A stretch of 64,000 bases of DNA from a phage, in sequence record PZ386969.1, one strand, 5' to 3'. The notes below the pieces were generated by a model that worked only from the letters and a program-made list of their open reading frames with translations, made no database searches and was not told where the DNA came from. Position numbers and translations under genes: made by a program. Every line of letters starts with the position of its first letter. Positions within the stretch are counted from its first letter, which is position 1. Shown one piece after another: positions 38,601 through 57,444 of the stretch.

Positions 38601-40439
38601 GCCATTTGCGTTCTTCACGCTGATCAGCTTGTAACCATCATGGTTCCCAAGTTGTGCGCTGGCCGCCGCAGTAAACGTCACAGTCTCGGTGGCTTCGGTA
38701 ACAGTCTTGGTCTTGATCGTCGCTGTGGTGCGGACCATCAATGCCAACAGGTTGATAGACTGGTTGGCATACCCCGCACCCAGGGAAATCTGCAGTGCTG
38801 AACCAACCGGAGTACCAGCCAGGGACAGTCCCGAAGAGATATCAAACTGAGCTGCAGTGCCATCTGCCTTCGCTGCGGAGTACAGTGAAAACTCAGGGCT
38901 GAAGCTGTAACCCAGAGGAGCAGAGATTGAGCCTGCACCAGCGGCGTTCAACGTGATCTTGTTTGACCGCAGGACGGTGTAGTTGATGTCGATGGTGCCT
39001 GTAGGTGCTAGAGTCTTCACACCAAATACAGGCAGAGGGAAGATCAGGTCAATTGCTGAACTCTGGCTGAACTGATTGGACTCCAGTTCGCAGGAGAACA
39101 TGGTTGTGCCGCTTTCTTCGTATGCAACTTTGGTAACAGTACCCATGTCCCCAGTCACAACCAGGTCGCGCATATACAGACGGAATTCAGTACCGGAGCG
39201 CTCTGCCGAAATCAGCAGGGCGGTGGCCTGCACATCGCTGGATGCGTTCAGGAACTTGTAGCGGATTGTGCGGGAGACAACCGGAACCCCTTTGGAGTTC
39301 TTGGACACCAGATAGTTGCCAGTCGAAACAGCCACAGGGTTGTTGTTCAGGATATCAGTGTCACGGGCTTTGTCAATTATGACCAGCTCTTCGCCGAGGT
39401 TTTCGATACGACGACCACGAACGTAGGAAATGCCTGGCTTCATAACAGCCACGAATTTGCTTTCATCACCACCTTCAGCCGGAGTGTATACGCCACCGTT
39501 GTTGTTCTGTTTCAGATGTTCGCGTAGGTCGATCTGGTGAGTAGAGACGTTGTAGTCACCATTGGTCTCATAGGTACGCTGAGCCATGGCGTCTTCGAGG
39601 ATGTTGTATGTTGACTGGGTGACCATGGACTGAATGCGACCGTCTTTCACCTTCGCCAGTTCGACGAAGTCGGCCACTTCTTCATCATAACCGTAGCGAG
39701 ACAACACGAGGTCGACGCGCAGGCGATGCGCACCAGGGGCTTTAGAGTTCGGAGTACCCTGAGCATTGGAGAACAGACTTTCATCTTCTGCTTCAGTCAC
39801 GATTGTTTCTGTAACTTTGAAGCCAATGCGGTGAGATGTAGAGTTCGATGCGTTGTCTACGATCAAAGTGGTTGGTTCAACATCCAGGAACATACCACGA
39901 ACGAAATAAACACCCTTTGTCATGCGAGCGACAATCGAACCGCCAACAGTATCGGCCACACCATAGCCGACACGGATGAAGTTATCGTTCACGTCATAGG
40001 TGTTGAAGTATAGATTGTCACCAGCTTCGAAACCGTCTGAACTACCACTCTCAGTCATCTCTAAGATGGCATACATTGTATCCGGCTCAGCTGGATAACG
40101 TTCCAAGGACAGGACGCGTGCTTTCGCATTGTTGTCCTTGCCCAGAACATAGAGTTCGGAGATACCTTCCAGATCAGTGAACTCACTACCGCCAGCCAGA
40201 GTGAACTTCATGGACACAGCAGTGTTGGTGATCGTTAGGCCGCCGGGGATAACCATTGAACCGTCTTTGAACAGATGGTTGCCAAGTTTCTCCAGTTGAT
40301 CCTGGAAGATGGTCTGCATCTGGTTCAGTTCACGCGTCTGAACTTTGATAGGTGCCGGACGGAATAGGATGCGCGAAAAACGCTTCTCTGGATTCCAGTC
40401 ATCCCAATATGGGCGGCGGTTGAGGTTCATTTCTTGCAT
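35601..40439 (-). CDS. giant virion structural protein (1612 aa), function unknown
   Basis: Continuous ORF; start moved from TTG 40487 to ATG MQEMNLN with GGAG RBS; late motif ACTAAATATC upstream; Ser/Thr/Asn/Gly-rich. Confidence 0.7.
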   Translation of the reverse strand: MQEMNLNRRPYWDDWNPEKRFSRILFRPAPIKVQTRELNQMQTIFQDQLEKLGNHLFKDGSMVIPGGLTITNTAVSMKFTLAGGSEFTDLEGISELYVLGKDNNAKARVLSLERYPAEPDTMYAILEMTESGSSDGFEAGDNLYFNTYDVNDNFIRVGYGVADTVGGSIVARMTKGVYFVRGMFLDVEPTTLIVDNASNSTSHRIGFKVTETIVTEAEDESLFSNAQGTPNSKAPGAHRLRVDLVLSRYGYDEEVADFVELAKVKDGRIQSMVTQSTYNILEDAMAQRTYETNGDYNVSTHQIDLREHLKQNNNGGVYTPAEGGDESKFVAVMKPGISYVRGRRIENLGEELVIIDKARDTDILNNNPVAVSTGNYLVSKNSKGVPVVSRTIRYKFLNASSDVQATALLISAERSGTEFRLYMRDLVVTGDMGTVTKVAYEESGTTMFSCELESNQFSQSSAIDLIFPLPVFGVKTLAPTGTIDINYTVLRSNKITLNAAGAGSISAPLGYSFSPEFSLYSAAKADGTAAQFDISSGLSLAGTPVGSALQISLGAGYANQSINLLALMVRTTATIKTKTVTEATETVTFTAAASAQLGNHDGYKLISVKNANGADVTSNFTLDGGQRDAAYYLSNLISSTGAISGTFTVVYQYFAHSSGDFFTADSYSSINYPDIPNYVSSSSGTVYGLADSLDFRPKITSGASDTDMVRPNTAIILDAEYYLPRIDAVYLADNGVFNVARGVSSNNLASPAIPDNGMRLYELMIPPYTANIDDIQIRTIDNRRYTMRDIGKLETRISNVEYYTSLSQLESSAMSQQVFDPITGNPRFKNGIAADPFKDFRLIDDLSADWVGSIDTDNGRLRPFVQQNAIDLTPVGWNNVQDGMVVCNYTREISVRQDYATTTINVNPYAVFNWEGFLKLNPTTDYWFENYYVTPRVINETINTRGAIKEGSVYGTWRTVSVSERVWEPHGAGGVWWGYRYRTTVSTRDVTTYTYTDKTTTTLTGEQIVETQVIPYMRKTNINFEATGLRPFTRVYPFFSGRDVSAYCTPNGGVLGGALNTDANGNIKGVFAVPQNETIKFNTGDNVFRLTDSPVDSKSADDTLTNAEAVHKSFGKKQGIQKTYVNTRVLGYTATKSTENKTETVEVAKWKDPIAQSFMVATNIGGEYIEGIEVFFSTKSRDIPITLEIREMSNGLPATTVVTRKTLNPSEVSISTDSSVPTMFKFDYPVYLQAQTEFAIVLLANTQDYNAYIAEMGKKNLLTNEFIAKQPYTGVFFTSSNGTTWTPNQTADMKFRVYRCNFSAGSNIVTFDAKVGPKIRPLGLNTVKCVNGSSTVTVYAPGHGLTAGESVTLSGLTGGCGFTPEQLNAQHTVTDATFTTFKFVLSSNADSDGQIGGEAASFLGNYLVDMFYASVTNSALEGSVLKLEYRYRDATSNSFSDWVEFESDTDVSLETEGIYRQVGDFQVRATMTRNESNVYTAPMIDGDDFTIIFNTYGVDPFEDVFSYVTKDIGFDNPCTTLKQYFGAMLPSQSSMTVQVKLLRAGQEMDNVAWETVAPTSPLVNDGSTFFEYEYDKTVDSTNPFVGLKIRLLVRGNRIAPPSFKDFRLIALA

Positions 40440-40481
40440 TTTGATGCTCCATCGATAGGTGCCATTATAGAGATATTTAGT

Positions 40482-40492
40482 ATACAACCAAC
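40482..40492 (-). promoter_or_regulatory. late promoter motif ACTAAATATCT upstream of giant structural gene
   Basis: Motif about 45 nt before ATG 40439. Confidence 0.45.
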
Positions 40493-40643
40493 CGAGGAAT
40501 AGAAAGAAATAAGCCCGAAGGGGCTTTGATTATCTTTCTGTGGTTATGGTCATGGATTCGAGACCTCTGCCATTCATGGTAGATGGTATTCAATTAGGTA
40601 TGTTTAATATATCAGGTCAGACTATTACCTTAACTGCTGTATC

Positions 40644-40681
40644 GATTAGGGTAATGCAAACAGTAAACTCTATATAAAAAG
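40644..40681. repeat. 3'-flank repeat shared by tailspike cassettes (copy 1)
   Basis: AGGGTAATGCAAACAGTAAACTCTATATAA aligns with 45503-45535. Confidence 0.55.
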
Positions 40682-40696
40682 TATTATTAATAAGTA

Positions 40697-40727
40697 AAAA
40701 CAACCCCATAGAAGTGGGGTTGTTTTT
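40697..40727 (-). terminator. terminator after tailspike 1
   Basis: Stem CAACCCCA/TGGGGTTG followed by T5. Confidence 0.6.
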
Positions 40728-40740
40728 AAGTGATTATTAC

Positions 40741-42657
40741 TTACATAACAACTGCGGCAGATATGTATCCTGAATCTTGATACGATCCAGAAAGGTCAAA
40801 AACTTCTAAGTTAAAAGAGTCAGGGGATGTACTTACGACATTAATTACTAATTTCCCTCCGCTAGTGGTATTGCCAACACTGCATAAAACAGCATAAGCA
40901 GAGGAGGGCATAGTATTAGATAGGTTGACGGTATATTTACCGGTCCCGGTTTTAGTTACAGTTGCTCCATCCGCATACACTGACGACCCCGAAATTCCAT
41001 TAAAATTGATCATTGCCCGTGTACATGCACTCGACCTTTTTGCGACGGTAGACCCAATAAATGCGTATTCTTGGGCCTTGTTAATATAAATCTTATTAAC
41101 AGAAGTGTCAGGTACTTGTAAGACGTTATCTATAACAACATTACAGGCTGTTGCTCCAGATACGGTAGAGCATCTATCTATCTCATAATTGTCGATATTA
41201 ATAGCCCTTACAAAACCTATACCCCCAAATGCTGACCAGTTTTGTTTAACAAGAACACCGGAAATACCGGACAGGAAAATAAGATCGCCTGTCGTATCTT
41301 TGCTAAACGTGTTGTTGGTTATTGAAACAGAAGAAGAACGCGGTGAGTGACTATCATCTGCAACATATACCCTGGCTAAAGAAGAAGCAGTATTCTCTTC
41401 AAAGTAGTTACCATCTACCAGTAACTGCTGTGCACCCCCGGCGACAACACCTACGTCATAGCCCGTGTTTGCTTCAAATAGAGAGTCTCTGACTATGAAA
41501 TTTCGTACACTACTTGCAGTACCTGAGTCTCCGATAAGAACACCGTTAACACCATCAAAGAAAGTACAATTATCAACTTTAACTACGTTGATATCTACTT
41601 TTGACGTTTTTACACCATTTGCACATTTAGCGAAATAGCATGAAGTTAGCTCAGCCACCCCGGAAAAATAGTCTGGGGCGTCGTAATGTAAATAAACACC
41701 GTACCGGGCGTTTCTGACAACGCAATCTTGAAGTTTTAGGTACCAAGCCCCTCCGAAATCAAAACCATCAGACGATGAGTCCTGAATATCCAAGAAAAGT
41801 CCAGAAATCTTAGCTCCTATCGCACCACCTTGAACCCGAATGGCGGGTGACGCTAACCCGGTAAACTTAATTACTGAACCTGTTGTTTGGTCATTAACAT
41901 GTCCAAAACTATTACCAACAATACATAGACTATCAGTGGCAGTTATGATTAAAGTAGAGCTTATAAGATAAATACCATCCGGTATGTATAAACTCTTTTT
42001 CGAATCTATTGCTGCCTGAAACGCGGCGGTATCATCGGTCACACCGTCGCCAACAGCCCCGAAGTCCTTGACTGACACCAGGTCTTTATTTTTATCATGT
42101 AGTGTTCGCTTAATGGAGTTGGCCAGAGGTGACTTAAATCCGACCAGACCAGCGCCATCATCAGATGCAAGATTGATTCTCAAGGCTGCATCACCAACAC
42201 TAACCCACTTGTCTAACCCAGTACCTCCAGCACTTTCAGGAGTTGAGCCAGAAGAAACGGTTTTAGGTAACTCACCATCCCAGCGATACTTACCTGTTGT
42301 ATGGGTAAGCAATTCATTTTTAACATTAAGTGTAGCACCATTGTCAAACGACCCAGACAATGTAACGTATTCTTCACGAGATACGGCTAATTCCCCAAGA
42401 TCTACGGAACCAGCTGAATGTACAAGTACGGCATTAGTACCAAGACTTACAGCAGTCACCCCCGAACCAATGTCAGCAGGCAAGGAATAGGCACGCTGAG
42501 TAGCCTTATCATAAATTACTTTGTAACCACCTAAGTCTACACCTACAGCAAAGTAGACTACCTCATTCTGTTTAACACCAAACTTACGGGCAATGGCTTG
42601 CTTATTGGTAAGAATACCAGTAGAGCCTTTACCACCTTGTGAGAACATTTCGTTCAT
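40741..42657 (-). CDS. tailspike-like protein 1 (638 aa)
   Basis: Gly/Ser/Thr/Asn-rich repetitive body; N-proximal module shared with the other two spikes; own terminator. Confidence 0.7.
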   Translation of the reverse strand: MNEMFSQGGKGSTGILTNKQAIARKFGVKQNEVVYFAVGVDLGGYKVIYDKATQRAYSLPADIGSGVTAVSLGTNAVLVHSAGSVDLGELAVSREEYVTLSGSFDNGATLNVKNELLTHTTGKYRWDGELPKTVSSGSTPESAGGTGLDKWVSVGDAALRINLASDDGAGLVGFKSPLANSIKRTLHDKNKDLVSVKDFGAVGDGVTDDTAAFQAAIDSKKSLYIPDGIYLISSTLIITATDSLCIVGNSFGHVNDQTTGSVIKFTGLASPAIRVQGGAIGAKISGLFLDIQDSSSDGFDFGGAWYLKLQDCVVRNARYGVYLHYDAPDYFSGVAELTSCYFAKCANGVKTSKVDINVVKVDNCTFFDGVNGVLIGDSGTASSVRNFIVRDSLFEANTGYDVGVVAGGAQQLLVDGNYFEENTASSLARVYVADDSHSPRSSSVSITNNTFSKDTTGDLIFLSGISGVLVKQNWSAFGGIGFVRAINIDNYEIDRCSTVSGATACNVVIDNVLQVPDTSVNKIYINKAQEYAFIGSTVAKRSSACTRAMINFNGISGSSVYADGATVTKTGTGKYTVNLSNTMPSSAYAVLCSVGNTTSGGKLVINVVSTSPDSFNLEVFDLSGSYQDSGYISAAVVM

Positions 42658-42681
42658 AACGACCTCTTTGTTTTTCTAAGA

Positions 42682-42705
42682 AACCCCGCCGAAGCGGGGT
42701 TAGTT
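42682..42705 (-). terminator. terminator after tailspike 2
   Basis: AACCCCGCCGAAGCGGGGTT, same sequence as at 19981 and 27703. Confidence 0.6.
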
Positions 42706-45210
42706 TTACGAGTAAGCACTCTCGAACTTACAAAACCAGGTTGCTCCTTCATCAGTTGTTGACAACCTAAAAACTTGTGTTCCAGCTGCTGTCAAAGATG
42801 GGGTATTGCTTGCTAATTTAACATTTGCACCAAATGTTATTGTTTTAGATGTTGTTGAACAGACAGCCAAAAGAACCTCAACATAACCAATTAGTGTATT
42901 TGTTAATACTGCTGGAGTTATTGTTACATCTCCTGTAACTGTAGCTGCGATGTAAGATGCGTCTGAAAAGTCAGGCGCATAACTTGCTGTTGGCGTCTCG
43001 AACTTTGGATTTCTTACCAATACAGGAACTCCAACATTTTTCCTGAAAATTGTACTATTGCAAACCATATCATACTCTATACCAACAAAATTCTTAGCTG
43101 CAAGTATGTTAGTAAATGTCTGGTCCGCAGAGTAAATATGAGTTATCAGCCTTGCCACCCATGCTGGTGAGTTTGAGTTTTCACACTCAATGAATGAACA
43201 GTTGATACTACCAACGGCGAATGGCATTAGTGATGCCGTATATGAAGATAGCCCTGCGTCATTAAACGCATTCATATTCACAAACGTCTGGCATTGAGAG
43301 AACGTATTACCGGTGGCTCCACCATCAATAAAAAAGCCAATCCCGCCGTTAATATAACCATCTACAGGATCTAAATTAGCTTTCGCGTAGTCCCATTTTG
43401 ATGGAGAATCTGCAAAACATTGATTGAAGGAATTGTTTATTGAGTTCTGTACAACAAAGCAGCATTTCATCCTTGAGTTCTGGTCAGTGACTGTATCGTC
43501 ATACATGCCCCAGTTGTGCACCTTACTAATTCTGTTATTGCCACCACCACGAACCCAGGTACCAAATCGGAAATAACGACCTTCACCCATACTAACCTGA
43601 TGATCGCTACCTTCAACAATGTGGGCTGTGCTGAGTGGATTAGTTGGTTTTAATACACCAACAGCATAAAACTTCAATAGGTGCACACCCATACCGCCAG
43701 CAATATGGATGCCATGACCATCAATATTGGCTACGTAAATGCCATCTAACTTGTTGGCATAACCATCAGATATTTTAAATCCATTAACAGTTTTTGCACG
43801 GGCATCAATTAAAAGATTGCTAATGTGCCCAGCGTATTGATTACCTGTACCTTTATCACACTTTACAGCATAACCAGATGAGTCTGCTATGAAGTCATCT
43901 GTCAGGTATACCCCACCGAAACCAGCATCAATGCTAACATCTCCGTGAATGTGTAGTGTCGTACTGATAGGATATTTCTTCCCATTCAGCCTGATAACTT
44001 TGCTTACAGTGTTAGGTTGTAGCCAGTCAGGATGGTTAGCAGCACTACTTGGTGCATGTTCTAAACCTGTTAAAGCTGCCGCAGCATCAATCGCATCCTG
44101 TAATGATGGATACATATCCGGGTTGACATTTATAATTTTCTTAAGCGCATTGCCAACAGTACCAGTTTCGTAATCAATTGACTTATCAAAACCTGAAAAA
44201 CCTGCTCCTGTAGGTTTAGCCAATTCTGACTTCAATGAAGCATCACCAACACTAACCCATGCACCTGTTCCAACACCACCGGTTGATGTAGTGGTTGAGT
44301 CAGCGGGGACAACTTTAGGTAGTGCACCCTCCCACGTATAGCACTGACCACCAGCGATGTGCCAAACAGCATCCGTTTCACTATTAACTGTTGCACCTTC
44401 TTCAAAGCTACCAGCAACGAGAGATAAACCTGCTTCTGCAAGTAAACGTCTCCACAATTCTCTGGTATTCGACTCTTGATGAGTAGGTAACAAAGTAACA
44501 GTAATATTACCTGGATTGTACGTTAACTGCCCATTACTAACGGATGAGATGTATATGTTAGAGGGTAATGAAGGTAACCCATATGACTTCTGCTCACTAA
44601 CAGAGTAGACAATCTTTTTACCATTCAATAATTGCGTAGTGTCAGTGCTAAGAATTACTTCACTGTCCTTAACGTTAGTTGCACGAGCGATTTCTTGAAT
44701 ACTTCGGTCAAACAACGGACTGATATTCGGTTGTTTAACAGACATTTCAGCGACTACCCAAACGCCTGCAGTCAGCGCAGTTTGTAAAGACACTTTCCCT
44801 GTCGTGCTGTCATAGGAATATTCAATTTCGGGTGTTTTGTACTCACCACCGATATAAAGAGATTGGACTCCATAATATGTGTAATCAGGAGTGAACTCGG
44901 TTTCACCTCCTATAGCCTGAAACTTATAGATTCGAACCCCGGTTTTATAATCTTCTGGAGACAGAATCTTATCAAACAGACAGAACACAACGTCACCTTT
45001 GGATAATGCGCGTCCGAGATTCAACGTATTTCCATCGATTTCAAAGTTGTCTAACGGAACTTGCATGCCACCGTTGATTGTGACTATACCAGTGACAGGG
45101 TAGAAAGGGAGGGAGATAAACTTCTCTCCACCCGTTGCTGTGTAAGTGTATGGAATCTGGTGCGGAGCTGTTACGACCGCTCCAAAGATGCTCTCGACGT
45201 TTCTGGTCAT
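42706..45210 (-). CDS. tailspike-like protein 2 (834 aa)
   Basis: Shared NVKD[ST]EV ... GGVGxGAW.SVGDA module; start moved to ATG MTRNVE after a late-promoter hairpin. Confidence 0.7.
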   Translation of the reverse strand: MTRNVESIFGAVVTAPHQIPYTYTATGGEKFISLPFYPVTGIVTINGGMQVPLDNFEIDGNTLNLGRALSKGDVVFCLFDKILSPEDYKTGVRIYKFQAIGGETEFTPDYTYYGVQSLYIGGEYKTPEIEYSYDSTTGKVSLQTALTAGVWVVAEMSVKQPNISPLFDRSIQEIARATNVKDSEVILSTDTTQLLNGKKIVYSVSEQKSYGLPSLPSNIYISSVSNGQLTYNPGNITVTLLPTHQESNTRELWRRLLAEAGLSLVAGSFEEGATVNSETDAVWHIAGGQCYTWEGALPKVVPADSTTTSTGGVGTGAWVSVGDASLKSELAKPTGAGFSGFDKSIDYETGTVGNALKKIINVNPDMYPSLQDAIDAAAALTGLEHAPSSAANHPDWLQPNTVSKVIRLNGKKYPISTTLHIHGDVSIDAGFGGVYLTDDFIADSSGYAVKCDKGTGNQYAGHISNLLIDARAKTVNGFKISDGYANKLDGIYVANIDGHGIHIAGGMGVHLLKFYAVGVLKPTNPLSTAHIVEGSDHQVSMGEGRYFRFGTWVRGGGNNRISKVHNWGMYDDTVTDQNSRMKCCFVVQNSINNSFNQCFADSPSKWDYAKANLDPVDGYINGGIGFFIDGGATGNTFSQCQTFVNMNAFNDAGLSSYTASLMPFAVGSINCSFIECENSNSPAWVARLITHIYSADQTFTNILAAKNFVGIEYDMVCNSTIFRKNVGVPVLVRNPKFETPTASYAPDFSDASYIAATVTGDVTITPAVLTNTLIGYVEVLLAVCSTTSKTITFGANVKLASNTPSLTAAGTQVFRLSTTDEGATWFCKFESAYS

Positions 45211-45216
45211 TTGAAG

Positions 45217-45253
45217 ATACCCCATAGAGGATTTGCCAATATGGGGTATTTAG
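45217..45253 (-). promoter_or_regulatory. late promoter CTAAATACCCCAT as 5' arm of hairpin; 3' arm ATGGGGTAT 6 nt before ATG 45210
   Basis: Inverted repeat ATACCCCAT / ATGGGGTAT with 15-nt loop. Confidence 0.55.
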
Positions 45254-45290
45254 TCTGAACTAATAAATTTATGAACAAAGGTATAACAAG

Positions 45291-45314
45291 AACCCCGCCA
45301 AAGCGGGGTTTGAC
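45291..45314 (-). terminator. terminator
   Basis: AACCCCGCCAAAGCGGGGTT followed by TG-rich tract. Confidence 0.5.
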
Positions 45315-45318
45315 ACTC

Positions 45319-45474
45319 CTATTCCAGACACATTTCAAAATGTATACCAACATCACCCCACCCATCATAAACAGACGACCCCGATATTCTTGATCCATCT
45401 ATGTTGGCGAAATAAAAATACGCTGACCCATCATTGATATCACCTATAAAGTTCTTATACCCGTTTGATGACAA
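45319..45474 (-). pseudogene. possible remnant of a tailspike C-terminus (51 codons, TTG start only)
   Basis: Frame reads ...ANIDGSRISGSSVYDGWGDVGIHFEMCLE stop, resembling the C-terminal end of spike 1; lies between a 3'-flank repeat and a terminator. Confidence 0.3.
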
Positions 45475-45490
45475 CCCGAGAGAGAGCCAA

Positions 45491-45540
45491 CAGCATTATC
45501 AATCAGGGTAATGAAAACAGTAAACTCTATATAATAAAAG
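45491..45540. repeat. 3'-flank repeat shared by tailspike cassettes (copy 2)
   Basis: AGGGTAATGAAAACAGTAAACTCTATATAA. Confidence 0.55.
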
Positions 45541-45562
45541 CCCCCAAAATTGGGGGCTTTTT
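45536..45562 (-). terminator. terminator after tailspike 3
   Basis: Stem AGCCCCC/GGGGGCT flanked by A/T runs. Confidence 0.6.
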
Positions 45563-45568
45563 ATTATA

Positions 45569-48500
45569 CTACCAGTAATACCAATCACCTTTTTTACTTC
45601 TGACTAGAATAGAACAATCGGTAACAGCTACTGTAGACACCCCACCAATCCTTATCTCATACAGTTTACTAGGCAATCTTTTCTTAGTTAGAGAGACTTT
45701 AAAATCTGTACCAGTTACAGTGATATATTCCGTCCCATCCTCACTATCTATCTGTAAATCTAGGCCGCTGGGACTTGCTGGGAGCTTAACATAAAGCTGT
45801 TGTTCTGCTGTACTACCAGCAAAATGACCGATAACTGTAGATGTCCACTCACTTAAAGTCAACCCTGAACGCACAAAGTCTACATTGAGCGGTTCCTTAA
45901 TAAGTGCAGCAGGTGCATTGTAATTATGCCCGTTAAGTACATAGTAGTTGCTGCTACCAACCTCTACTGTGTCTGCTGTGCAGTAAGAGTGGAAGGTTTT
46001 TGCGTTATCAAAGCGATATAGACTTCTGATTAGCACACGCTCTTGATTGCTTCTGGTTAAAATGCCACAACCTGCGGAAAGGTGGAGTGTGGAGATGGTA
46101 AGCGTATGACTTTCACTGTTGGCCTTGGATGACAGCAATGACACCTTGGGTTCACCCTCTTGAGTAAAGTCTTTACTATTACCCTCACAGTACATGACCC
46201 CAATGTCCCACGCAGCAGGGTCCATTGTTACTACCCCAGCACCTGCCGTATTCTCAGAGCAAATCACACCAACACTGGTAGACAAACCACGACCTAAGAT
46301 AATACCAGCACCTATTGTATATTTACTCGCATCATCCGTGATTGGGTCATAACCTAGTCCCGTAGACTTATCAGTACCCCATGCACTAATGTGAGGGAAG
46401 TGTGTAGCATTCACATAGGTATCCCCTTGCTCACCTTCTGTTGAATAACCTAATGCCATACCCCTTGCACAGTTGTTTGCATGGAGAGTGCCCATTTGAA
46501 AATACCAGCAAGCAAACATTACAATGCCATATCTATTAGCATTATATGCATAGATGCTACCCATCTCAGATTCTGCACACAGAAGACGTGCATAAAAACC
46601 ATATGATGCAATATCTGCACAGTCTACGTTTAAGCTACCGATTAAGCGTAATCCTCGCACTTGATTCTCTGTATTAGCCACATCCACTGTTGCTGTACCG
46701 ACAGGAAATTTACTAACGCGTACAACAGCTTTTAACGTAGGCCATACGGAGCCAATTGCTTTAATTGTTGCCCCGTTTAGATTCCCACGTAAGTAAGAAG
46801 GTATAACAACCTCATCCGTTACGTGGTAGGTAGAATTCCCATTCAGATTTAATGTACCTGTGGCTATAGCTAGTTTTATAGCAGGTAAACAGTCAAAACT
46901 AGGGTCATTGGGGATTGCACCAAAATTCTCAGGTGAGTGTTCATTAAACCCTGTTAGCTTACCAACGTTAGTCCAAGAAGAGTCTGGGGCAGCACCATAA
47001 CTAACAGGTAGTGTCCCATTGTACTTGTACCAGAACCCATCTGAATGTAGAACAACCTGATATTTATCGGATACATTCCCACCATCACCGAATACACCGC
47101 TCTTTTTGTAAAGAGACAGACTACCGGAATCAATAAGAGAAGAACCTTTCCAGGAGGCTAAACGTTGCTCTAATCCAACAACACCAACTACAAGCCATGC
47201 CCCTGGACCAACACCTCCTGTACCCAATGGGGTAGATTCTGGAGGGACTACTTTGGGTACAGAACCATCCCAACGATATTTAATATCGTTACTCACAACC
47301 AACTCATTCTTGGTATTAACAGTTACACCTGTATCGAATGAACCAGGTAAGGTCACATACTCCTCACGAGATACGGCTAATGCGCCCAGATCAACACTAC
47401 CAGCAGAATGCACAAGTACAGCCGAAGAACTAAGGCTGACTGCCGTGGTTCCAGTCGGTAGCTCTGGAATAAAATATGATCTCTGTGTTACTTTATCATA
47501 GATAACTTTATACCCGCTTAGCACAGCACCAACACTAAAATAAACGACCTCTGTATCTTTAACATTGGTTACACGAGCCACTTCCCGCAAAGTATGATCA
47601 ATTTGATTATAGATGTTTGGTGTTCCATTGATAATTACAACAACTTCATCTTCTGGTTCCAGTTCTTGCGCCAGAGTGATTTTACTGGTTAATGGATCGA
47701 ATGTGAATCCCAGATTTTTATACTGACGACTTCCGTTTATATCAATGGCCGGAACATCATCAACAACGACGTCCAACGTGATTTCGGTTTCACCGCCAAT
47801 CGCTGAACCCCCATTATAGACCCAAGTAATCGTAGAAGAACTAGAACCACCGCCATTACCCAATTGAATAGGAGTATATTCAATCACCTGAAGTTCTGTG
47901 CTGGCTGGCAAAGAAGGACTGAAAGTGATTACATTCCCATCTAGTGAATATTTGGATTCCGCAAGGCGTTTTCCGTCAGCATACACGTCCACGATTGTTG
48001 GTGGAGTATTGAGAGTGACAGTACTTGTTTCAGACGCCAAAATTTTTGTAAAGATTTCACGACTGTAGACACGGCCTTGGCCAAGACCGACGCCGGATGT
48101 AATAATCCAACCTTGTTCAGGTCCAGACCAAGTGAACGTTGCTGATACGTTATCAGTTGTTATAGCCATGTCTTCAGTGGAGCCATACAAATTATTTCCA
48201 GAAGGAGACACGGTCAATGGGTAAGTGGCAAATTTCCCATAAGCATCACAAATAGTAACGGAATCCCCAATACGCGTAGGGGAAGGGAGAACCACTGTAG
48301 ATGCCCCTGTGGTATTATTAATGAGATAGCCTCGCCCTTCAGTGAGCGTTGCCGTAGAGGCATGCGGAAGGACTTCCCAGCGGATGCCACCGCCACCCAG
48401 CGGCAACCAACCACCATTTTCGTAATAACCTTCGAATTCGTCGGAGTCGGCATTGTAGCGAACGGAAGACGGGAGTCCTGCGCTGGCATTACCCTCGGGT

Positions 48501-52842: not shown

Positions 52843-53412
52843 ATGCACATTAACACAGCAATCATGAAACACATTATTCCTTTGTTAGCAAAATACGAAG
52901 GGGAACGCGCCGCGAAAATCCCTTTTGGAACAATTACCGAAGAAGTGAAACGCCTGACAGGTAAAAGTATCAATTTCCGTCGCGTTATTGAATCTGCCTT
53001 AGAGTTGGCTCGTTCTGATTTACGAAATCCAACATTTTCATTTAATATTGACATAACTTCTTCGCTTCGACAAGAAATGGAAGAATCATCACAAGCGCGG
53101 CGCAATCGTTTCCGTCATTTATATGTTCGTAACGAATTCTCTGAAGGTCGTGTTGGTATGAAACTGGAGTCTATTCGTTCTGACATTTGCTTCACTGTCA
53201 ACTATGTTTTAGAGCCAGAAAGCGGGCGCATTTATTTTGGCGCGATTATCGGTTTCTATGGGAACTCCATTAATGGTTGGGCAGAACGCGTTGGATTAAA
53301 AGAAACCCAGAACACTCATTCCACACCTTCTACCCATTATATGACGCATGAAGCTGCTGGCGAATATGTTTACCTTCTGCGTCGTGTTGTGAAGTTAGAA
53401 GTGTTAAAATAA
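52843..53412 (+). CDS. hypothetical protein (189 aa)
   Basis: ATG with GAGG RBS; first gene of the plus-strand block. Confidence 0.5.
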   Translation: MHINTAIMKHIIPLLAKYEGERAAKIPFGTITEEVKRLTGKSINFRRVIESALELARSDLRNPTFSFNIDITSSLRQEMEESSQARRNRFRHLYVRNEFSEGRVGMKLESIRSDICFTVNYVLEPESGRIYFGAIIGFYGNSINGWAERVGLKETQNTHSTPSTHYMTHEAAGEYVYLLRRVVKLEVLK

Positions 53413-53469
53413 CGCTTTATTCAATAAATAATTGCAGTAAAGTTATTTGCATGGAAGGGAGGGAACACT

Positions 53470-53616
53470 ATGTTTTACATGATGTTACTCCTCATCCTTC
53501 TGATCGGGATTACCTTTACTCTCCTGGGTCTACTCGATCAGTCCGGTAAACAGACGCCCACTTCGGCGCATCCGGTTTTGTGTGAAGGTTCGTCCGCACT
53601 GCTGTGGGCAGTGTAG
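53470..53616 (+). CDS. small hydrophobic protein (48 aa), absent from ORF track
   Basis: ATG preceded by AAGGGAGGG RBS; MFYMMLLLILLIGITFTLLGLL transmembrane-like segment. Confidence 0.4.
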   Translation: MFYMMLLLILLIGITFTLLGLLDQSGKQTPTSAHPVLCEGSSALLWAV

Positions 53617-55444
53617 CACAAAGAGGAGAGGACTTTTCAAATTAGCTTGGCTGTAGTAAAGTATTAAACACGAGGCGAATAGCGCGGTGGTAGTAGGGCT
53701 GGAACCCGAAACCAGGAAAGCCCAGTCTCAGGGCACCGTGACGAATAGAGGCGTAATATCAACCTCGCTGGTGTCGGTGGACGCACTGACCGTCGGAGAA
53801 CGAAACTCCCTGTTGTAGCGTGATTAGCTCAGAGAAGAGAGCGCCCCGTTGGCGAGTCGACACCAACACATAGGGGAGGTCGGGTCTGCCAAAATCCATC
53901 ACGCCGACAACATTATGAGTCTTCCATAGAGGGTTCATAATGTTGCGTCAAAGGGCAACACAAAGGTTCCTGTTGGTTGAATTAACTTGATTCATAGTTC
54001 CTACTGATCTTCCCGGATTCGAAGGATCACCAACAGGCGAGGCCGGATGCGTAAGTTCCGGTAAATCGATGGTGACGCCCTCGCAAACAAAAATAAAAGG
54101 TTTTATCAATAACGGGTTACAAAGTATAGTTAACCCACTGAACGGCAAGCTGTTTGAGTCCTGGCCACTCATAGTGTTGTGAGACCAAGACAGGTACGTT
54201 TAGGACTCAAACAGGTTTTCGTTTTCGTTGTGCGTGACTTTGCGGGTTTTTAGAAACTGACCAAGCAAATAACTGCTAATGATTCCGAAGTTCTGATGGC
54301 GGCGTAACAGCCTATAAGTCAGTGAGGTCTTCCGATTCCTCATCACCAAATTCGGCGCACTAAAATAGACGGGAGGGTGTGATTAATAAGCTCCCGTCGA
54401 CAATGCCGTTATATCTGACTGTCCAAAGGGGATAAGCTCCTGAGTAAGCAGAGGTGGGTTGCCTAAGTCAGATGGGATGTAAGGTCAGCGCTGGCCAAGC
54501 ATTTGGGTTCGACTCCTAAAAACGGCTCCACATCTTTGAGGATATTCTCACGAGTATCTTGAAAGATGTGAGCGAAGTCTTGCCATCAGCCCTGATCCCT
54601 GGCAGGTGAAGGGCACACAAATCGAAGTGCCTTGACAATTTATCTTAAACCCAAAGGTTGATCTACAAATTTGGGCGGCCAATCCGGTGGACGATAACAG
54701 CATATTGGGCCATACTGTTGAGTCAGGGCACTTCGATTTGTGAACTTTAGAGAGCATTGGGTGAAATAGACCATGCCTTGCAGATTGCGATGCCTACACA
54801 TTCCGGACACTGGTGGGCACCAAGAAGAACTCAGTAGCAGACGAGCCATCAGGGTTAGCTACCCGGCGCGGCGAGGACTGGGAGGCCGAACTAAGGGGAA
54901 ACCCGAGACAGGCGTAGTATTCTCAAGTTCACAAAATGAAGAGCATTTAAAGAGTTCGATTCTCTTTCAGGCCATTCGTGGTGTGATGTGAGTCATGAAT
55001 GTTCTTCATCTTTGGGTGATTCTATGTTGTCGGGCTATCAACCCATGCTTGCTGGAGCAACCAGCGGCTCTGAATCAACCAGCCAGCCTCGTTTGGTCCG
55101 AGCGTTAGAGGACAAGTTGCTTCTACATGGAAGCTGCGAGTTGCGACATTGGTTGCAACTTTGATGGCTCTGGATTTTATAAACCATGTCTATGGGTGAC
55201 GCGGGATCTTTAGTACCAGAGCTATCAAAGTTGTGTCCAACCCGATCTTACAAGCCCGTATCCCGGTCTGGTTAAGACTTGTAAGTGGAAAGCCCTGGAA
55301 AAATAAACGCCTGTGGCGAGGCTATGGTGCAAGCCAAAGACCCACAGAAGCGCGTTGCCGTGAGGCGCACAAACAGGCATGCATGAACTGATCATGCACA
55401 AACGGGATAAAGGGTTGACAGTCCTTGGTTGGTCACAATAATTT

Positions 55445-55521
55445 GGTCCTGTAGCTCAGTCGGTTAGAGCAGTGAACTCATAATTCATTGGTCATTGGTT
55501 CAAACCCAATCAGGATCACCA
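55445..55521 (+). tRNA. tRNA-Met (CAU)
   Basis: Manual cloverleaf: acceptor GGTCCTG/CAGGATC, D-arm GCTC-AGTCGGTTA-GAGC, anticodon loop CTCATAA, T-arm ATTGG-TTCAAAC-CCAAT, encoded CCA. Confidence 0.8.
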
Positions 55522-55655
55522 TATTGAGGGGCGATAGTTTAATGGATAGCTGTCCGGACAGTGAATCCTCATAGAGAACGGCTGGGCGGCCAAACCCAGC
55601 AGGTGAGGTGAAAAGCCTCAGACCCCGCCAATACAGTTTGTTGTAAAATAAATGT

Positions 55656-55683
55656 TTGTTCAATAAACTTTATATGGTATAGT
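55656..55683 (+). promoter_or_regulatory. sigma70-like promoter TTGTTC-N16-TATAGT upstream of tRNA-Asn
   Basis: -10 ends 9 nt before tRNA 5' end. Confidence 0.4.
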
Positions 55684-55692
55684 GATTTGCAA

Positions 55693-55768
55693 GACGATGT
55701 AGTTCAGTCGGTAGAACGGCGGTCTGTTAAACCGTATGTCGCAGGTTCAAGTCCTGCCATCGTCGCCA
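55693..55768 (+). tRNA. tRNA-Asn (GUU)
   Basis: Acceptor GACGATG/CATCGTC, anticodon loop CTGTTAA, T-arm GCAGG-TTCAAGT-CCTGC, encoded CCA. Confidence 0.8.
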
Positions 55769-56025
55769 GACAATGGGTGTGAACGAAAGTGAATAGGCAT
55801 AAAGTACGCGACCGACAAGCTCCAAGCCTCTGTCCAATAGCCGAACGGAATCCGAAGACGACGATAGTAGCGCCCACCAAATTCAGAGTGTAGAGGCTAC
55901 AGTAGTGCGCACCTCACGGGTTGCTACACCGGACACTCTGATACAAATCTACCGCCGCGTGGATTAGCTGAGGAAGGATGGCCGATGTCCTCGAGCGTGG
56001 CCCAGCACGCAGCGGCAGACCAAAT

Positions 56026-56109
56026 GTGAGTGTGGCAGAGCGGTCGAATGCAGGAGACTGTAAATCTCCCCGTAACAGCGCGGTGGTTCGAATCCATCCA
56101 CTCACACCA
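56026..56109 (+). tRNA. tRNA-Tyr (GUA), long variable arm
   Basis: Acceptor GTGAGTG/CACTCAC, anticodon loop CTGTAAA, T-arm GGTGG-TTCGAAT-CCATC, encoded CCA. Confidence 0.75.
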
Positions 56110-56329
56110 AACACAGTAAGCGTTGCAGCCAGCTGTGTATAAAATGGGGTGACTCCACATCGGAAACGATGCCCCAACTTCCAGAAATGGTCGGGCGCAA
56201 AGTCTGTAAAGTTCCAGGAGATCGAACCAGAAGGCACTGGTCGCCAGTTAACCAATCGGCGCTGAGAAGCGCGGGGAGTTGGGCTACGGCAGATCAAATG
56301 CTCAATCGGGTGTGAAGCCCGTCCAAATT

Positions 56330-56418
56330 GGAAGGTTGCCCGAGAGGTTTAAGGGACTCGACTGCTAATCGAGTGGGGCTTTTAGCCCCCGAAGGTTCGA
56401 ATCCTTCACCTTCCGCCA
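56330..56418 (+). tRNA. tRNA-Ser (GCU), long variable arm
   Basis: Acceptor GGAAGGT/ACCTTCC, anticodon loop CTGCTAA, variable-arm hairpin GGGGC/GCCCC, T-arm GAAGG-TTCGAAT-CCTTC, encoded CCA. Confidence 0.8.
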
Positions 56419-56634
56419 AATTACGGGCGTGACTTCCTGAAGAGTTAGAAGATGTGCATGTCGACTCTCTCGTAATCGGGTGTTTAGGAAGTTAAGAAAA
56501 TCGCGGCGAGGATAGTGAAATGCAAATAGCTTTCTCTACGTCGACGACTTCAGGTTCGACTCCTGACGCGCTCTCCCATAGGGTAGTACCAGTGCAAGCG
56601 TGTAGTCTTTCAACCCATCCCATCGATGTGGTGT

Positions 56635-56665
56635 AGCCGGATATCCTATCCGGCTTTCTTTTTAT
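56635..56665 (+). terminator. rho-independent terminator closing the tRNA cluster
   Basis: Stem AGCCGG/CCGGCT followed by TTCTTTTTAT. Confidence 0.65.
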
Positions 56666-56787
56666 CCCTGTCTTATTATCTTCTTATCGACCCAAGCATG
56701 TCCTCCTTTATCGTAGTTTGTTCAATGATACAAAGGGGGTTTAAAATTTAACCGTTAACCCCCTATCATAGATTTGAGGATACACTA

Positions 56788-57444
56788 ATGCGTAATGTTT
56801 CTATCTGGGAATTGAACGAAGTGATTTCCCGTGACACCCCTCCAATTGTCAGACTCTTCCGATACAAGGGTGTCAAGCGTACTCTGAATGAGTTCCTGTC
56901 GCCTGTTTACGTCTACCGTGATGGCGGGTTCTTCCGCCGCGATAAAAACATCCCGAACCTTGGTATGACGTTTGATTTGAGTATCAAAGGCCAGGTTGTA
57001 TTGATGGGTTATGATAGCCTGGAACAATCTGAGAAAGGCCAGGGCGCTCCACTTATGGTCTTCGGTTCGTTTGAACAAGCCGTGCACTGGCTGATCAGAA
57101 ACGGATATGATTTCTATGGCGAAGAAAGCGCCAATTGGCGTCGTCGCAAGGTCAAGTCTGTTGATCTGGTGGATTTGAATCTGATGTACCAGGCCATGGC
57201 TCGCGAGTACGAAAAGAATCTCGTCAAGCCTGTCGCCCAGGAGAACAATGTTGTTAACGACGCAACTGAGTCTTCTCATCATGACGTGAACATCGTTCCA
57301 GCCTGTGAAACGAAAGCGCCGACACCGCCCACTCCTCCGGCCAGTCGTGTTCTGAATGATCAGGGTGCTCCAGTAAAACAAAAGGTCAAAAAGCCAACTT
57401 TCATGGATAACATGATGAAGTTCCTTCGTCTGTTCAAGAAGTAA
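56788..57444 (+). CDS. hypothetical protein (218 aa)
   Basis: ATG with GAGGA RBS; follows the tRNA-cluster terminator. Confidence 0.5.
   Translation: MRNVSIWELNEVISRDTPPIVRLFRYKGVKRTLNEFLSPVYVYRDGGFFRRDKNIPNLGMTFDLSIKGQVVLMGYDSLEQSEKGQGAPLMVFGSFEQAVHWLIRNGYDFYGEESANWRRRKVKSVDLVDLNLMYQAMAREYEKNLVKPVAQENNVVNDATESSHHDVNIVPACETKAPTPPTPPASRVLNDQGAPVKQKVKKPTFMDNMMKFLRLFKK

What the first reader, a model, noticed from the sequence alone, without database searches (positions are those of the whole stretch)
55445..56665. tRNA cluster (Met, Asn, Tyr, Ser) with long spacers and a tRNA-like fragment
Four canonical tRNAs with encoded CCA are separated by spacers of about 170-260 nt, longer than needed for processing, and the cluster ends with a strong terminator at 56635-56665. 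The spacer before the terminator holds a perfect T-arm TCAGG-TTCGACT-CCTGA (56550-56566) without a matching 5' half. Spacers may encode additional small RNAs; tRNA-Asn has its own sigma70-like promoter.
Basis: seen in the sequence. Interest (0 to 1): 0.4.

Follow-up and report, generated by a model that had tools for sequence, protein, structure and literature searches.

The report
Phage tRNA island with tRNA-like RNAs
The four tRNA genes are real and already annotated in related phages, but the long "spacers" between them are conserved, folded, unannotated small RNAs (one a 154-base tRNA look-alike), similar in kind to the two phage T4 RNAs whose function has been unknown for 50 years.

Summary
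The window is an Ackermannviridae phage, 99.4% identical to Escherichia phage AV101 over the cluster. ARAGORN and Rfam confirm four tRNAs at the stated coordinates, and the terminator and T-arm are there.

Three points of the reading need correcting:
- The "Met" tRNA most resembles E. coli tRNA-Ile(CAU).
- The "orphan" T-arm does have a 5' partner, 125 nt upstream. Together they close a 154-nt tRNA-like RNA (S4, 56425-56578) whose helices covary (98% of cells paired against 41-49% in slid controls; 11 compensatory pairs).
- The cluster is the 3' third of a roughly 3-kb non-coding island (53620-56635) found in all 17 Ackermannviridae regions compared.

Where present, most spacer modules are more conserved than the flanking protein genes. 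They persist where tRNAs are missing, and come and go as cassettes bounded by ACCAAA(T). A 57-nt motif (M3) is shared with T5-like and N4-like phages, covaries, has no Rfam match and was not found in bacterial genomes.

Best reading: tRNA-derived structured RNAs, co-transcribed and processed with the tRNAs, analogous to T4 RNAC and RNAD. Expression and function are untested.

The parts
53620..55414 (+). Upstream part of the non-coding island. It holds M1 (54405-54530), M2 (54614-55137) and U7 (55223-55414), with many covarying helices.
   Evidence: No credible ORF. It is conserved in 12-16 of 16 relatives. Compensatory pairs are seen in each block; for example, M2a has 14 of 73 pairs, including a 20-bp helix 54616-36/54722-42. 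Rfam gives nothing.
54405..54530 (+). M1: a 126-nt tRNA-like RNA. Acceptor GCCGTTA/AAACGGC; T-arm TTGGG-TTCGACT-CCTAA (54503-54519); 3' end U-CCA.
   Evidence: Sequence. It is 94-98% identical across genera while its flanks are unrelated. The architecture matches S4. It is too conserved to show covariation (0 compensatory pairs).
55415..55442 (+). Sigma70-like promoter match, TTGACA-16-AATAAT (11 of 12).
   Evidence: The predicted start falls about 3-5 nt inside the tRNA that follows. In LIMEstone1 the same block directly abuts S1.
55445..55521 (+). tRNA with anticodon CAT and encoded CCA. ARAGORN calls it Met; it is probably tRNA-Ile2 (AUA).
   Evidence: Best E. coli match is annotated tRNA-Ile. 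Annotated tRNA-Ile in fGh-Ecl02.
55528..55630 (+). S1: a cloverleaf-like, tRNA-derived RNA. Its 5' end GGGGCGATAGTTTAATGGATAGC resembles a tRNA acceptor and D-arm. It has three hairpins and ends in GCCA.
   Evidence: 28 predicted pairs, 6 with compensatory changes (moderate support; some come from a single sequence). It is retained in LIMEstone1 next to the promoter block, without the adjacent tRNA.
55644..55691 (+). Promoter-like block before tRNA-Asn (extended -10 TGgTATAGT at 55675-55683). It repeats the motif at 53405-53451.
   Evidence: (D3). Not listed by the consensus scan. Present in about 6-8 of 16 relatives.
55693..55768 (+). tRNA-Asn(GTT), CCA encoded.
55775..55879 (+). S2a: a conserved 105-nt unit with closing stem GGGTGT/GCGCCC and 3' end A-CCA. 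No supported internal structure.
   Evidence: Present in 9 of the 10 relatives tabulated, at 72-100% identity. 0 compensatory pairs and MFE z = +0.3. Indels break the reading frames.
55884..55940 (+). M3: a 57-nt three-way-junction RNA motif (P1 of 6-8 bp, P2 of 4 bp, P3 of 3 bp, possible GUAG:CUAC loop-loop contact). Shared by Ackermannviridae, T5-like and N4-like phages.
   Evidence: Structure test: 100% of cells paired against 30-49% in slid controls, and 5 compensatory pairs. The covariance model finds one copy per genome. No exact match to the conserved-core pattern in 185,579 bacterial and archaeal genomes. No Rfam match.
55952..56022 (+). M4: a 71-nt tRNA-sized unit. Closing stem CCGCCGC/GCGGCAG, two hairpins, 3' end A-CCA. 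Its core is shared with the N4-like phage PBM-3.
   Evidence: The hairpin GAGGA/TCCTC becomes GTGGA/TCCAC in PBM-3 (compensatory). 89-99% identity within the family.
56026..56109 (+). tRNA-Tyr(GTA), CCA encoded.
   Evidence: Precisely absent in L009 and L015, between ACCAAA repeats.
56110..56325 (+). S3: a 216-nt highly conserved spacer RNA with several hairpins, ending CGGG-TGTGAAG-CCCG-T-CCA.
   Evidence: 93-99% identity across genera where the whole unit is present. MFE z = -2.2 on +, -0.95 on -. Only 2 compensatory pairs because it barely varies.
56330..56418 (+). tRNA-Ser(GCT), CCA encoded.
   Evidence: In Magnus and L037 a tRNA-Gln lies within the block aligned to this stretch.
56425..56578 (+). 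S4: a 154-nt tRNA-like RNA.
- Acceptor stem 56425-31/56567-73.
- Long D-position stem 56433-38/56486-91 with a 47-nt insert.
- Long anticodon-position stem 56501-08/56539-47 with a 30-nt loop holding the near-invariant GTGAAATGCAAATAGCTTTC (56515-56534).
- T-arm 56550-56566.
- Tail T-CCC-A.
   Evidence: Structure test on 12 sequences: 98.4% of cells paired against 41-49% in slid controls, 11 pairs changed on both sides, 0 of 500 shuffles reach the observed value. 13.7% of cells are G-U, so the fold is specific to the + strand. Not called by ARAGORN or by the Rfam tRNA model.
56635..56665 (+). Intrinsic terminator closing the island (9-bp stem AGCCGGATA/TATCCGGCT plus T-run).

Best explanation
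The cluster is the 3' part of a roughly 3-kb non-coding 'RNA island' (53620-56635, + strand) conserved in Ackermannviridae. Canonical tRNA genes (Ile2-type CAU, Asn, Tyr, Ser) are interleaved with tRNA-derived and tRNA-sized structured RNAs.

The units:
- Two long tRNA-like RNAs keep an acceptor stem and a T-arm but have enlarged D- and anticodon-position domains: S4 (154 nt) and M1 (126 nt).
- S1 is cloverleaf-like.
- M3 is a compact three-way junction.
- M4, S2a and S3 end in N-CCA.

Proposed mechanism. The island is transcribed from sigma70-like promoters as polycistronic precursors that end at the 56635 terminator. The host tRNA maturation machinery cuts the units apart:
- RNase P at acceptor/T-arm modules;
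- RNase E in the A/U-rich CCA-AAU linkers;
- 3' exonucleases trimming back to CCA.

The tRNA-like ends would make the products stable small RNAs, as for T4 RNAC and RNAD.

Proposed function. The units are accessory cassettes that are gained and lost between ACCAAA(T) repeats. I take them to be tRNA mimics or tRNA-scaffolded effectors acting during infection. The most likely role is engaging host factors that bind or attack tRNAs.

What is shown and what is inferred. Shown: conservation, + strand RNA structure and modularity. Inferred: transcription, processing, stability and function.
For: Non-coding status:
- No credible ORF lies between 53616 and 56788.
- Only the 48-aa peptide at 53470-53616 hits a phage protein family.
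- Indels break the reading frames.

Conservation compared with the neighbouring genes:
- Where present, M1 is 94-98% identical, S3 93-99%, M4 89-99% and U7 83-95%.
- In divergent genera the pA gene is about 69% identical and the pB gene 65-75% over partial coverage. pB is 47-53% identical at the protein level in most Kuttervirus and Taipeivirus relatives.
- S4 is the exception at 70-79%.

RNA structure:
- S4: 98.4% of cells paired against 41-49% in slid controls, 11 compensatory pairs, 0 of 500 shuffles. 13.7% G-U cells make the fold + strand specific.
- M3: 100% paired against 30-49%, 5 compensatory pairs across three phage families.
- S1: 6 compensatory pairs. U7: 7. M2a: 14.

Modules behave independently of the tRNAs:
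- LIMEstone1 has one tRNA but keeps U7, S1, S2a, M3, M4 and parts of S3.
- tRNA-Tyr is precisely absent in L009 and L015, and M3+M4 in L004, between ACCAAA(T) repeats.
- CCAAAT is about 6-fold enriched in the island (5 against 0.79 expected).

Cross-family sharing:
- M3 occurs in 358 phage records from three families, almost never annotated.
- The M4 core occurs in an N4-like phage, with a compensatory change.

Precedent:
- T4 RNAC and RNAD lie in the T4 tRNA cluster.
- RNAC has a T-arm, and tRNA-Arg and RNAD end in ACCAAAT.
- They are expressed, and their function is unknown (PMC3014915, PMC9697503).

Promoter-like sites and a terminator bracket the island.
Against: - No expression, end-mapping or stability data were available, and no Ackermannviridae transcriptome was found in the library.
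- MFE z-scores are modest (-0.8 to -2.9), and S2a shows no structure signal.
- S3, M1 and M4 are too conserved to test by covariation.
- S4 lacks a canonical N-CCA (its tail is T-CCC-A).
- The strongest promoter match predicts a start inside the CAT tRNA.
- Much of the covariation comes from a few lineages. M2a is essentially two alleles, so the number of independent events is smaller than the cell counts suggest.
- Modules are dispensable in some close relatives (L004 lacks M3 and M4), so none is essential.
- The proposed function has no direct support.
Confidence: 0.65

Rival explanations
1. The spacers are decaying tRNA pseudogenes and neutral filler left by tRNA gain and loss. The T-arm is a relic.
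For: - Several units look tRNA-derived. S1's 5' end resembles an acceptor plus D-arm. M4 contains GATTAGCTGAGG. Many units end in N-CCA.
- Relatives carry annotated pseudo-tRNAs next to tRNA-Ser.
- tRNA content varies from 1 to 7 among relatives.
- S2a has no structure signal.
Against: - Where present, most units are more conserved than the adjacent protein genes.
- Non-tRNA helices are maintained by compensatory changes.
- Units persist in a lineage that has lost nearly all its tRNAs.
- M3 and M4 are shared across phage families.
Confidence: 0.1
2. The conserved blocks work at the DNA level. They could be promoters, terminators, targets or recombination scaffolds for homing endonucleases, or a replication origin.
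For: - Promoter-like and terminator-like sites are present.
- HNH homing endonuclease genes sit in this island in SS9, Marshall and Maynard.
- Cassette boundaries are short direct repeats.
- The cumulative GC-skew minimum is at about 52 kb, close by.
- M3 carries 8-nt palindromes.
Against: - Covariation preserves base pairing rather than sequence.
- In S4, 13.7% of paired cells are G-U, which would be mismatches on the other strand or irrelevant in duplex DNA.
- The units have tRNA-like acceptor and T-arm architecture, which has meaning only as RNA.
- The skew minimum coincides with the switch of transcription direction, not with the island itself.
Confidence: 0.1
3. The spacers encode small proteins, as several GenBank records annotate ('hypothetical protein').
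For: Automated annotations place ORFs of 30-70 aa here. The window has ORFs of 34-127 aa.
Against: - None of 9 candidate ORFs hits a phage protein family. The genuine 48-aa peptide upstream does.
- The largest ORF (127 aa, - strand) overlaps the whole of tRNA-Tyr.
- 1- and 2-nt indels among relatives break the frames.
- Different annotators call different ORFs on different strands.
Confidence: 0.03
4. S4 (and M1) is a genuine decoding tRNA with introns or insertions, or a small tmRNA-like molecule.
For: It has a 7-bp acceptor stem, a canonical T-arm and T-loop, and the D / anticodon / T order of domains. Det7 annotates a pseudo-tRNA 'with possible intron' nearby.
Against: - There is no 7-nt anticodon loop. 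S4 has a 30-nt loop and M1 a tetraloop.
- There is no tRNA or tmRNA call from ARAGORN or Rfam, even at E<=10.
- There is no G3-U70 pair and no tag reading frame.
- By established knowledge, the tRNA introns described in bacteria and their phages are group I introns, and Rfam finds none here.
Confidence: 0.03

Closest known systems
Phage T4 RNAC (species 1, 139 nt) and RNAD (species 2, 119 nt)
   Same: - Small non-tRNA RNAs encoded head-to-tail with tRNAs in a phage tRNA cluster.
- RNAC has a canonical T-arm and a domain order like S4 and M1: large first domain, second hairpin, T-arm, acceptor 3' strand.
- T4 tRNA-Arg and RNAD end in ACCAAAT, like the units here.
- Function unknown (PMC3014915, PMC9697503).
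   Different: - No detectable sequence homology beyond the T-loop.
- Here there are many more units over about 3 kb.
- The units behave as exchangeable cassettes.
- One motif (M3) crosses phage families.
Canonical tRNAs and annotated phage pseudo-tRNAs ('tRNA-OTHER')
   Same: Acceptor stem, T-arm and CCA-type ends. They probably arose from tRNA gene duplicates.
   Different: S4 and M1 have no anticodon loop, are twice the length of a tRNA and fail the tRNA models. Unlike pseudogenes, they are under structural constraint.
Theta (minimal HDV-like) ribozymes next to phage tRNAs (PMC10879173)
   Same: A small structured RNA immediately 3' of phage tRNAs. M3 follows tRNA-Lys by about 5 nt in T5-like phages.
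   Different: - M3's 5' and 3' ends pair with each other in a three-way junction, not in the nested double pseudoknot of HDV-like ribozymes.
- Rfam finds no ribozyme match.
- Theta ribozymes are reported from gut phages of Bacteroidota and Bacillota.
tmRNA tRNA-like domain, and Y-RNA-like YrlA (tRNA mimics; recalled from memory)
   Same: They use an acceptor/T-arm module as a tRNA mimic within a larger RNA.
   Different: - No tag ORF, no pseudoknots and no G3-U70 pair.
- ARAGORN finds no tmRNA.
- The only Rfam hits are a T-loop fragment and a sub-threshold 'permuted tmRNA' hit (19.8 bits against a cut-off of 47).
- In YrlA the RNA ends form the Ro-binding stem, not the acceptor stem.
GOLLD and ROOL large ornate RNAs of phages, often near tRNA genes (recalled from memory)
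   Same: Large conserved structured non-coding RNA next to phage tRNAs. M2 (524 nt) in the upstream part of the island is the candidate for comparison.
   Different: No Rfam match to GOLLD, ROOL or any other large RNA family at E<=10.
Engineered 'tRNA scaffold' for stable RNA expression in E. coli (recalled from memory)
   Same: S4 and M1 look like natural versions: acceptor and T-arm are kept, and the anticodon arm is replaced by a long stem carrying a payload loop.
   Different: These are natural and conserved. The payload function is unknown.

Membership tests
Canonical tRNA (the four genes) | Cloverleaf recognised by tRNA detectors, with a 7-nt anticodon loop | tested here: met
   ARAGORN. 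Rfam tRNA model, 56-76 bits against a cut-off of 29.
Canonical tRNA (the CAT gene as elongator or initiator tRNA-Met) | Closest cellular homologue is a tRNA-Met | tested here: not met
   The best full-length E. coli matches are annotated tRNA-Ile (77.9% identity). Relatives annotate it as tRNA-Ile. Lysidine modification itself cannot be tested here.
Canonical tRNA (S4 and M1) | Matches the tRNA model; 7-nt anticodon loop; about 76-90 nt | tested here: not met
   No ARAGORN or Rfam tRNA hit at E<=10. They are 154 and 126 nt long. The anticodon-position loop is 30 nt in S4 and a tetraloop in M1.
Canonical tRNA (S4 and M1) | 7-bp acceptor stem plus a 5-bp T-stem with a TTCRANY loop | tested here: met
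   S4: both helices are 100% paired, with compensatory changes. M1: 6 of 7 acceptor pairs and a 5-bp T-stem.
T4 RNAC/RNAD-type stable RNAs of phage tRNA clusters | Non-tRNA RNA gene embedded among tRNA genes on the same strand | tested here: met
T4 RNAC/RNAD-type stable RNAs of phage tRNA clusters | Sequence homology to T4 rnaC or rnaD | tested here: not met
   blastn finds only T-loop matches of 11-17 nt. The M3 model finds nothing in the T4 locus.
T4 RNAC/RNAD-type stable RNAs of phage tRNA clusters | Accumulates as a discrete stable RNA processed from tRNA precursors | not testable with these tools
   No transcriptome data are available. Needs a Northern blot or small-RNA sequencing.
tmRNA | tRNA-like domain with G3-U70, a tag reading frame and pseudoknots | tested here: not met
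   ARAGORN finds no tmRNA. The S4 acceptor has G2-U71 or A2-U71 and G3-C70. The Rfam tmRNA hits are far below threshold.
Theta / HDV-like ribozyme (M3) | Nested double-pseudoknot topology with the P1 5' strand at the cleavage site and a catalytic C in J4/2 | tested here: not met
   The covariation-supported P1 joins the two ends of M3. No Rfam ribozyme hit.
tRNA pseudogene | Evolves without constraint on structure | tested here: not met
   Compensatory changes and high conservation relative to the neighbouring genes. The test is inconclusive for S2a.

The most novel reading that the evidence does not exclude
Virulent enterobacterial phages of at least three families (Ackermannviridae, T5-like Demerecviridae, N4-like Schitoviridae) carry and exchange a toolkit of tRNA-mimic RNA cassettes inside their tRNA islands. 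These RNAs use acceptor/T-arm or compact junction folds to be processed and stabilised like tRNAs. They then act as decoys, sponges or scaffolds against host tRNA-directed factors such as anticodon nucleases, tRNA-modifying or CCA-targeting immune enzymes. M3 may also multimerise through its palindromic loop. If so, this would be an RNA-based counter-defence layer, and a functional explanation for T4 RNAC and RNAD.
Probability: 0.2. Interest if true: 0.85.

Novelty: new variant of a known kind. Interest (0 to 1): 0.6.

Why it matters
Phage tRNA clusters are usually annotated as tRNAs plus 'spacers' or spurious small ORFs. Here the spacers are mostly better conserved than the neighbouring protein genes, and the variable ones fold with compensatory changes.

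This gives several undescribed RNA families: S4/M1-type long tRNA-like RNAs, and the M3 motif present in 358 phage genome records. It also provides many natural sequence variants with which to study a class known only from T4 RNAC and RNAD, whose role has been open since the 1970s.

The findings also correct annotation. The CAT tRNA is probably Ile2, and the 'hypothetical proteins' called in this region are probably not genes.

The cassette-like turnover of these units, in the same locus as tRNAs that are now linked to escape from tRNA-targeting defences, suggests experiments on phage-host conflict.

Tried and rejected
- Rfam at gathering threshold on the whole window, and at E<=10 on 53400-57000. 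Only the four tRNAs are significant. The miRNA, plastid and 'permuted tmRNA' hits are sub-threshold chance or tRNA-antisense matches.
- Theta/HDV-like ribozyme reading of M3. Rejected on topology.
- Hammerhead, twister and pistol ribozymes for M3. No Rfam hit and no core motifs.
- Sequence homology of any module to T4 rnaC or rnaD. None found.
- Internal repeat families within the island. Only hairpins and one promoter-like repeat were found.
- A naive scan for '7-bp closing stem + NCCA' units. It gives only about twice the shuffled count, too noisy to use alone.
- An antisense target for the conserved S4 loop in the window. None at up to 3 mismatches. The 14-nt complement at 53439-53452 lies in a promoter and is probably chance.
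- Small-protein reading. No phage protein family hits.
- Replication-origin reading. GC skew is uninformative.
- M3 in bacterial and archaeal genomes. No exact match to the conserved-core pattern.
- Ten literature searches found no description of these Ackermannviridae RNAs and no transcriptome for the family. Two of them were poorly targeted and uninformative.
- Thermodynamic z-scores alone do not discriminate the units.
Full report
**1. What the window is**

The region 53400-56800 matches 292 phage records, nearly all Ackermannviridae (Kuttervirus, Agtrevirus, Taipeivirus, Limestonevirus). The tRNA cluster is 99.4% identical to Escherichia phage AV101. In those records the cluster is annotated only as tRNAs, with or without short 'hypothetical proteins'.

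**2. Checking the observation**

- ARAGORN finds exactly four tRNAs at the stated coordinates: Met(cat) 55445-55521, Asn(gtt) 55693-55768, Tyr(gta) 56026-56109 and Ser(gct) 56330-56418.
- Rfam's tRNA model scores them 56-76 bits, and nothing else in the 64 kb reaches a gathering score.
- All four encode CCA. The spacers are 171, 257 and 220 nt, with 216 nt before the terminator.
- The terminator 56635-56655 plus T-run is detected.
- The T-arm TCAGG-TTCGACT-CCTGA is at 56550-56566.

Corrections:

- The CAT tRNA's best full-length E. coli matches are annotated tRNA-Ile. Several relatives annotate it as tRNA-Ile. It is most likely an Ile2-type tRNA that reads AUA.
- AUA runs at 7.1 per thousand codons in the window's long ORFs. 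Asn codons run at 52 per thousand and Tyr codons at 40. From memory these exceed E. coli usage; AGY Ser codons, at 18.8, do not.
- The promoter claimed for tRNA-Asn was not listed by the consensus scan. An extended -10, TGgTATAGT (55675-55683), is visible, in a block that repeats 53405-53451.
- The best sigma70 match (55415-55442, 11 of 12) lies so close to the CAT tRNA that the predicted start falls inside it.

**3. The 'orphan' T-arm belongs to a complete tRNA-like RNA (S4)**

Alignment of 12 distinct homologues shows the following:

- GGGCGTG (56425-56431) pairs with CGCGCTC (56567-56573) as a 7-bp acceptor stem.
- A long stem sits at the D position (56433-38/56486-91), enclosing a structured 47-nt insert.
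- An 8-9-bp stem sits at the anticodon position (56501-08/56539-47). It closes a 30-nt loop containing the near-invariant GTGAAATGCAAATAGCTTTC.
- The T-arm follows.

The counting test gives 98.4% of cells paired, against 41-49% when the partners are slid by 1-3 columns. Eleven pairs change on both sides, against 1-4 in the slid controls, and 0 of 500 shuffles reach the observed value. G-U pairs make up 13.7% of cells, so the fold exists only on the + strand.

S4 is not a tRNA by ARAGORN or Rfam. It has no anticodon loop and ends T-CCC-A.

M1 (54405-54530) has the same architecture: acceptor GCCGTTA/AAACGGC, a large D-position domain, a hairpin, the same TTCGACT T-loop and U-CCA. It is 94-98% identical across genera while its flanks are unrelated.

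**4. The other spacers**

- **S1 (55528-55630).** It starts like a tRNA (GGGGCGATAGTTTAATGGATAGC). It folds into a closing stem plus three hairpins, with 6 compensatory pairs. Support is moderate.
- **S2a (55775-55879).** It is conserved and ends GCGCCC-A-CCA, but shows no structure signal. It remains unexplained.
- **M3 (55884-55940).**
  - *Structure.* It is a 57-nt three-way junction. In a ten-sequence alignment spanning Ackermannviridae, T5-like and N4-like phages, 100% of cells pair (30-49% when slid), with 5 compensatory pairs.
  - *Distribution.* A covariance model finds one copy per genome. It occurs in 358 phage records, almost always unannotated. Its conserved-core pattern has no exact match in 185,579 bacterial and archaeal genomes. 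In T5-like phages it starts about 5 nt after the CCA of a tRNA-Lys.
- **M4 (55952-56022).** It is tRNA-sized, with a closing stem and A-CCA. Its core recurs in the N4-like phage PBM-3, with a compensatory change (GAGGA/TCCTC to GTGGA/TCCAC).
- **S3 (56110-56325).** It is 93-99% identical across genera where the whole unit is present. That is too conserved for covariation testing. MFE z is -2.2 on the + strand.

**5. Context: a 3-kb RNA island**

- Between the 48-aa peptide gene (53470-53616, phrog_8415) and the gene at 56788 there is no credible ORF.
- The equivalent interval is 3.0-5.2 kb in the 17 Ackermannviridae regions compared, the window among them. They carry 1-7 tRNAs.
- The upstream 2 kb is also full of covarying helices. 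U7 has 7 compensatory pairs. M2a has 14, including a 20-bp helix at 54616-36/54722-42. M2a is essentially two alleles.
- Where present, most modules are better conserved than the flanking genes. In divergent genera the pA gene is about 69% identical. The pB gene is 65-75% identical over partial coverage, and pB is 47-53% identical at the protein level in most Kuttervirus and Taipeivirus relatives. S4, at 70-79%, is the exception.

**6. Modularity**

- LIMEstone1 has a single tRNA yet keeps U7, S1, S2a, M3, M4 and parts of S3. There the promoter block abuts S1 directly.
- tRNA-Tyr is precisely absent in L009 and L015, and M3+M4 in L004. In both cases the deletion lies between ACCAAA(T) repeats.
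- In Magnus a tRNA-Gln lies within the block aligned to the window's tRNA-Ser region.
- CCAAAT occurs 5 times in the island against 0.79 expected. Four of the five mark unit ends in the cluster.
- T4 tRNA-Arg and RNAD end the same way.

**7. Mechanism**

Shown: conserved, + strand-specific RNA folds arranged head-to-tail with tRNAs between promoter-like sites and a terminator.

Inferred from established knowledge of tRNA maturation (RNase P recognition of acceptor/T-arm/CCA, RNase E cleavage downstream of CCA in polycistronic precursors, and exonucleolytic trimming): the units are cut out and stabilised like tRNAs.

Function is not shown. Because the units are accessory, exchangeable and tRNA-like, I favour tRNA mimicry or a natural tRNA-scaffold role in phage-host conflict.

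**8. Comparison with known systems**

- The closest known case is T4 RNAC and RNAD. They share the genomic setting and RNAC's domain order, and their function is unknown. There is no sequence homology.
- These RNAs are not tmRNA, not theta/HDV-like ribozymes and not any Rfam family.
- The pseudogene, small-protein and DNA-element readings are each contradicted by conservation, frame-breaking indels and G-U-containing covariation.

**9. Verdict**

The tRNAs themselves are ordinary and already annotated. The 'spacers' are the finding: several undescribed structured RNA families of a kind known only from T4. Expression and function are untested.

Interest 0.6. Novelty: new variant of a known kind.

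Noticed in passing
window 53620-55414: About 1.8 kb upstream of the cluster is also non-coding and full of covarying helices. It includes M2 (54614-55137, 524 nt), which is 96% identical to the Klebsiella phage Magnus although the flanking protein pB is only about 50% identical. This may be a large structured RNA. Rfam has no match.
   Followed up: partly
window 53470-53616 (+): A 48-aa hydrophobic peptide with a strong ribosome-binding site matches phrog_8415 (E=1.5e-30). It is the only convincing coding sequence between 53412 and 56788.
   Followed up: partly
window 55415-55450: The best sigma70-like promoter (TTGACA-16-AATAAT) predicts a start 3-5 nt inside the CAT tRNA. In LIMEstone1 the same block directly precedes S1. 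The tRNA therefore looks inserted between the promoter and S1.
   Followed up: partly
window 55905-55912 (M3 P2 loop): The loop carries an 8-nt self-complementary sequence in both sequence variants: GUGCGCAC in Ackermannviridae and GGUGCACC in T5-like and N4-like phages. This hints at kissing-loop dimerisation. It could also be a trivial result of deleting the central GC.
   Followed up: no
window 56520-56533 vs 53439-53452: The S4 loop AUGCAAAUAGCUUU is complementary (14 bp including one G-U) to the -10/start region of the promoter of the 48-aa peptide gene. This is probably chance. No other target exists in the window at up to 3 mismatches.
   Followed up: partly
L011 (ViI) 1320-1462; L007 (PBM-3) 1458-1577: Two further units of 120-143 nt with a perfect 7-bp closing stem plus T-arm, in other phages. 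They may be additional long tRNA-like RNAs.
   Followed up: no
Relatives SS9, Marshall, Maynard: HNH homing endonuclease genes are inserted inside the homologous tRNA island. They could drive cassette exchange.
   Followed up: no
window 40000-48000: GC drops to 0.42 with strongly negative GC skew across the large - strand ORFs. This suggests a horizontally exchanged module, possibly tailspike genes.
   Followed up: no
window 54156-54307: Weak Rfam 'permuted tmRNA' hit (19.8 bits, against a gathering score of 47). Judged not significant.
   Followed up: partly
L005 (Sepoy) 1193-1366 and similar T5-like records: A 57-aa 'hypothetical protein' is annotated over the M3 motif and over the 3' end of tRNA-Lys. 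It is probably a mis-annotation of a non-coding RNA.
   Followed up: no
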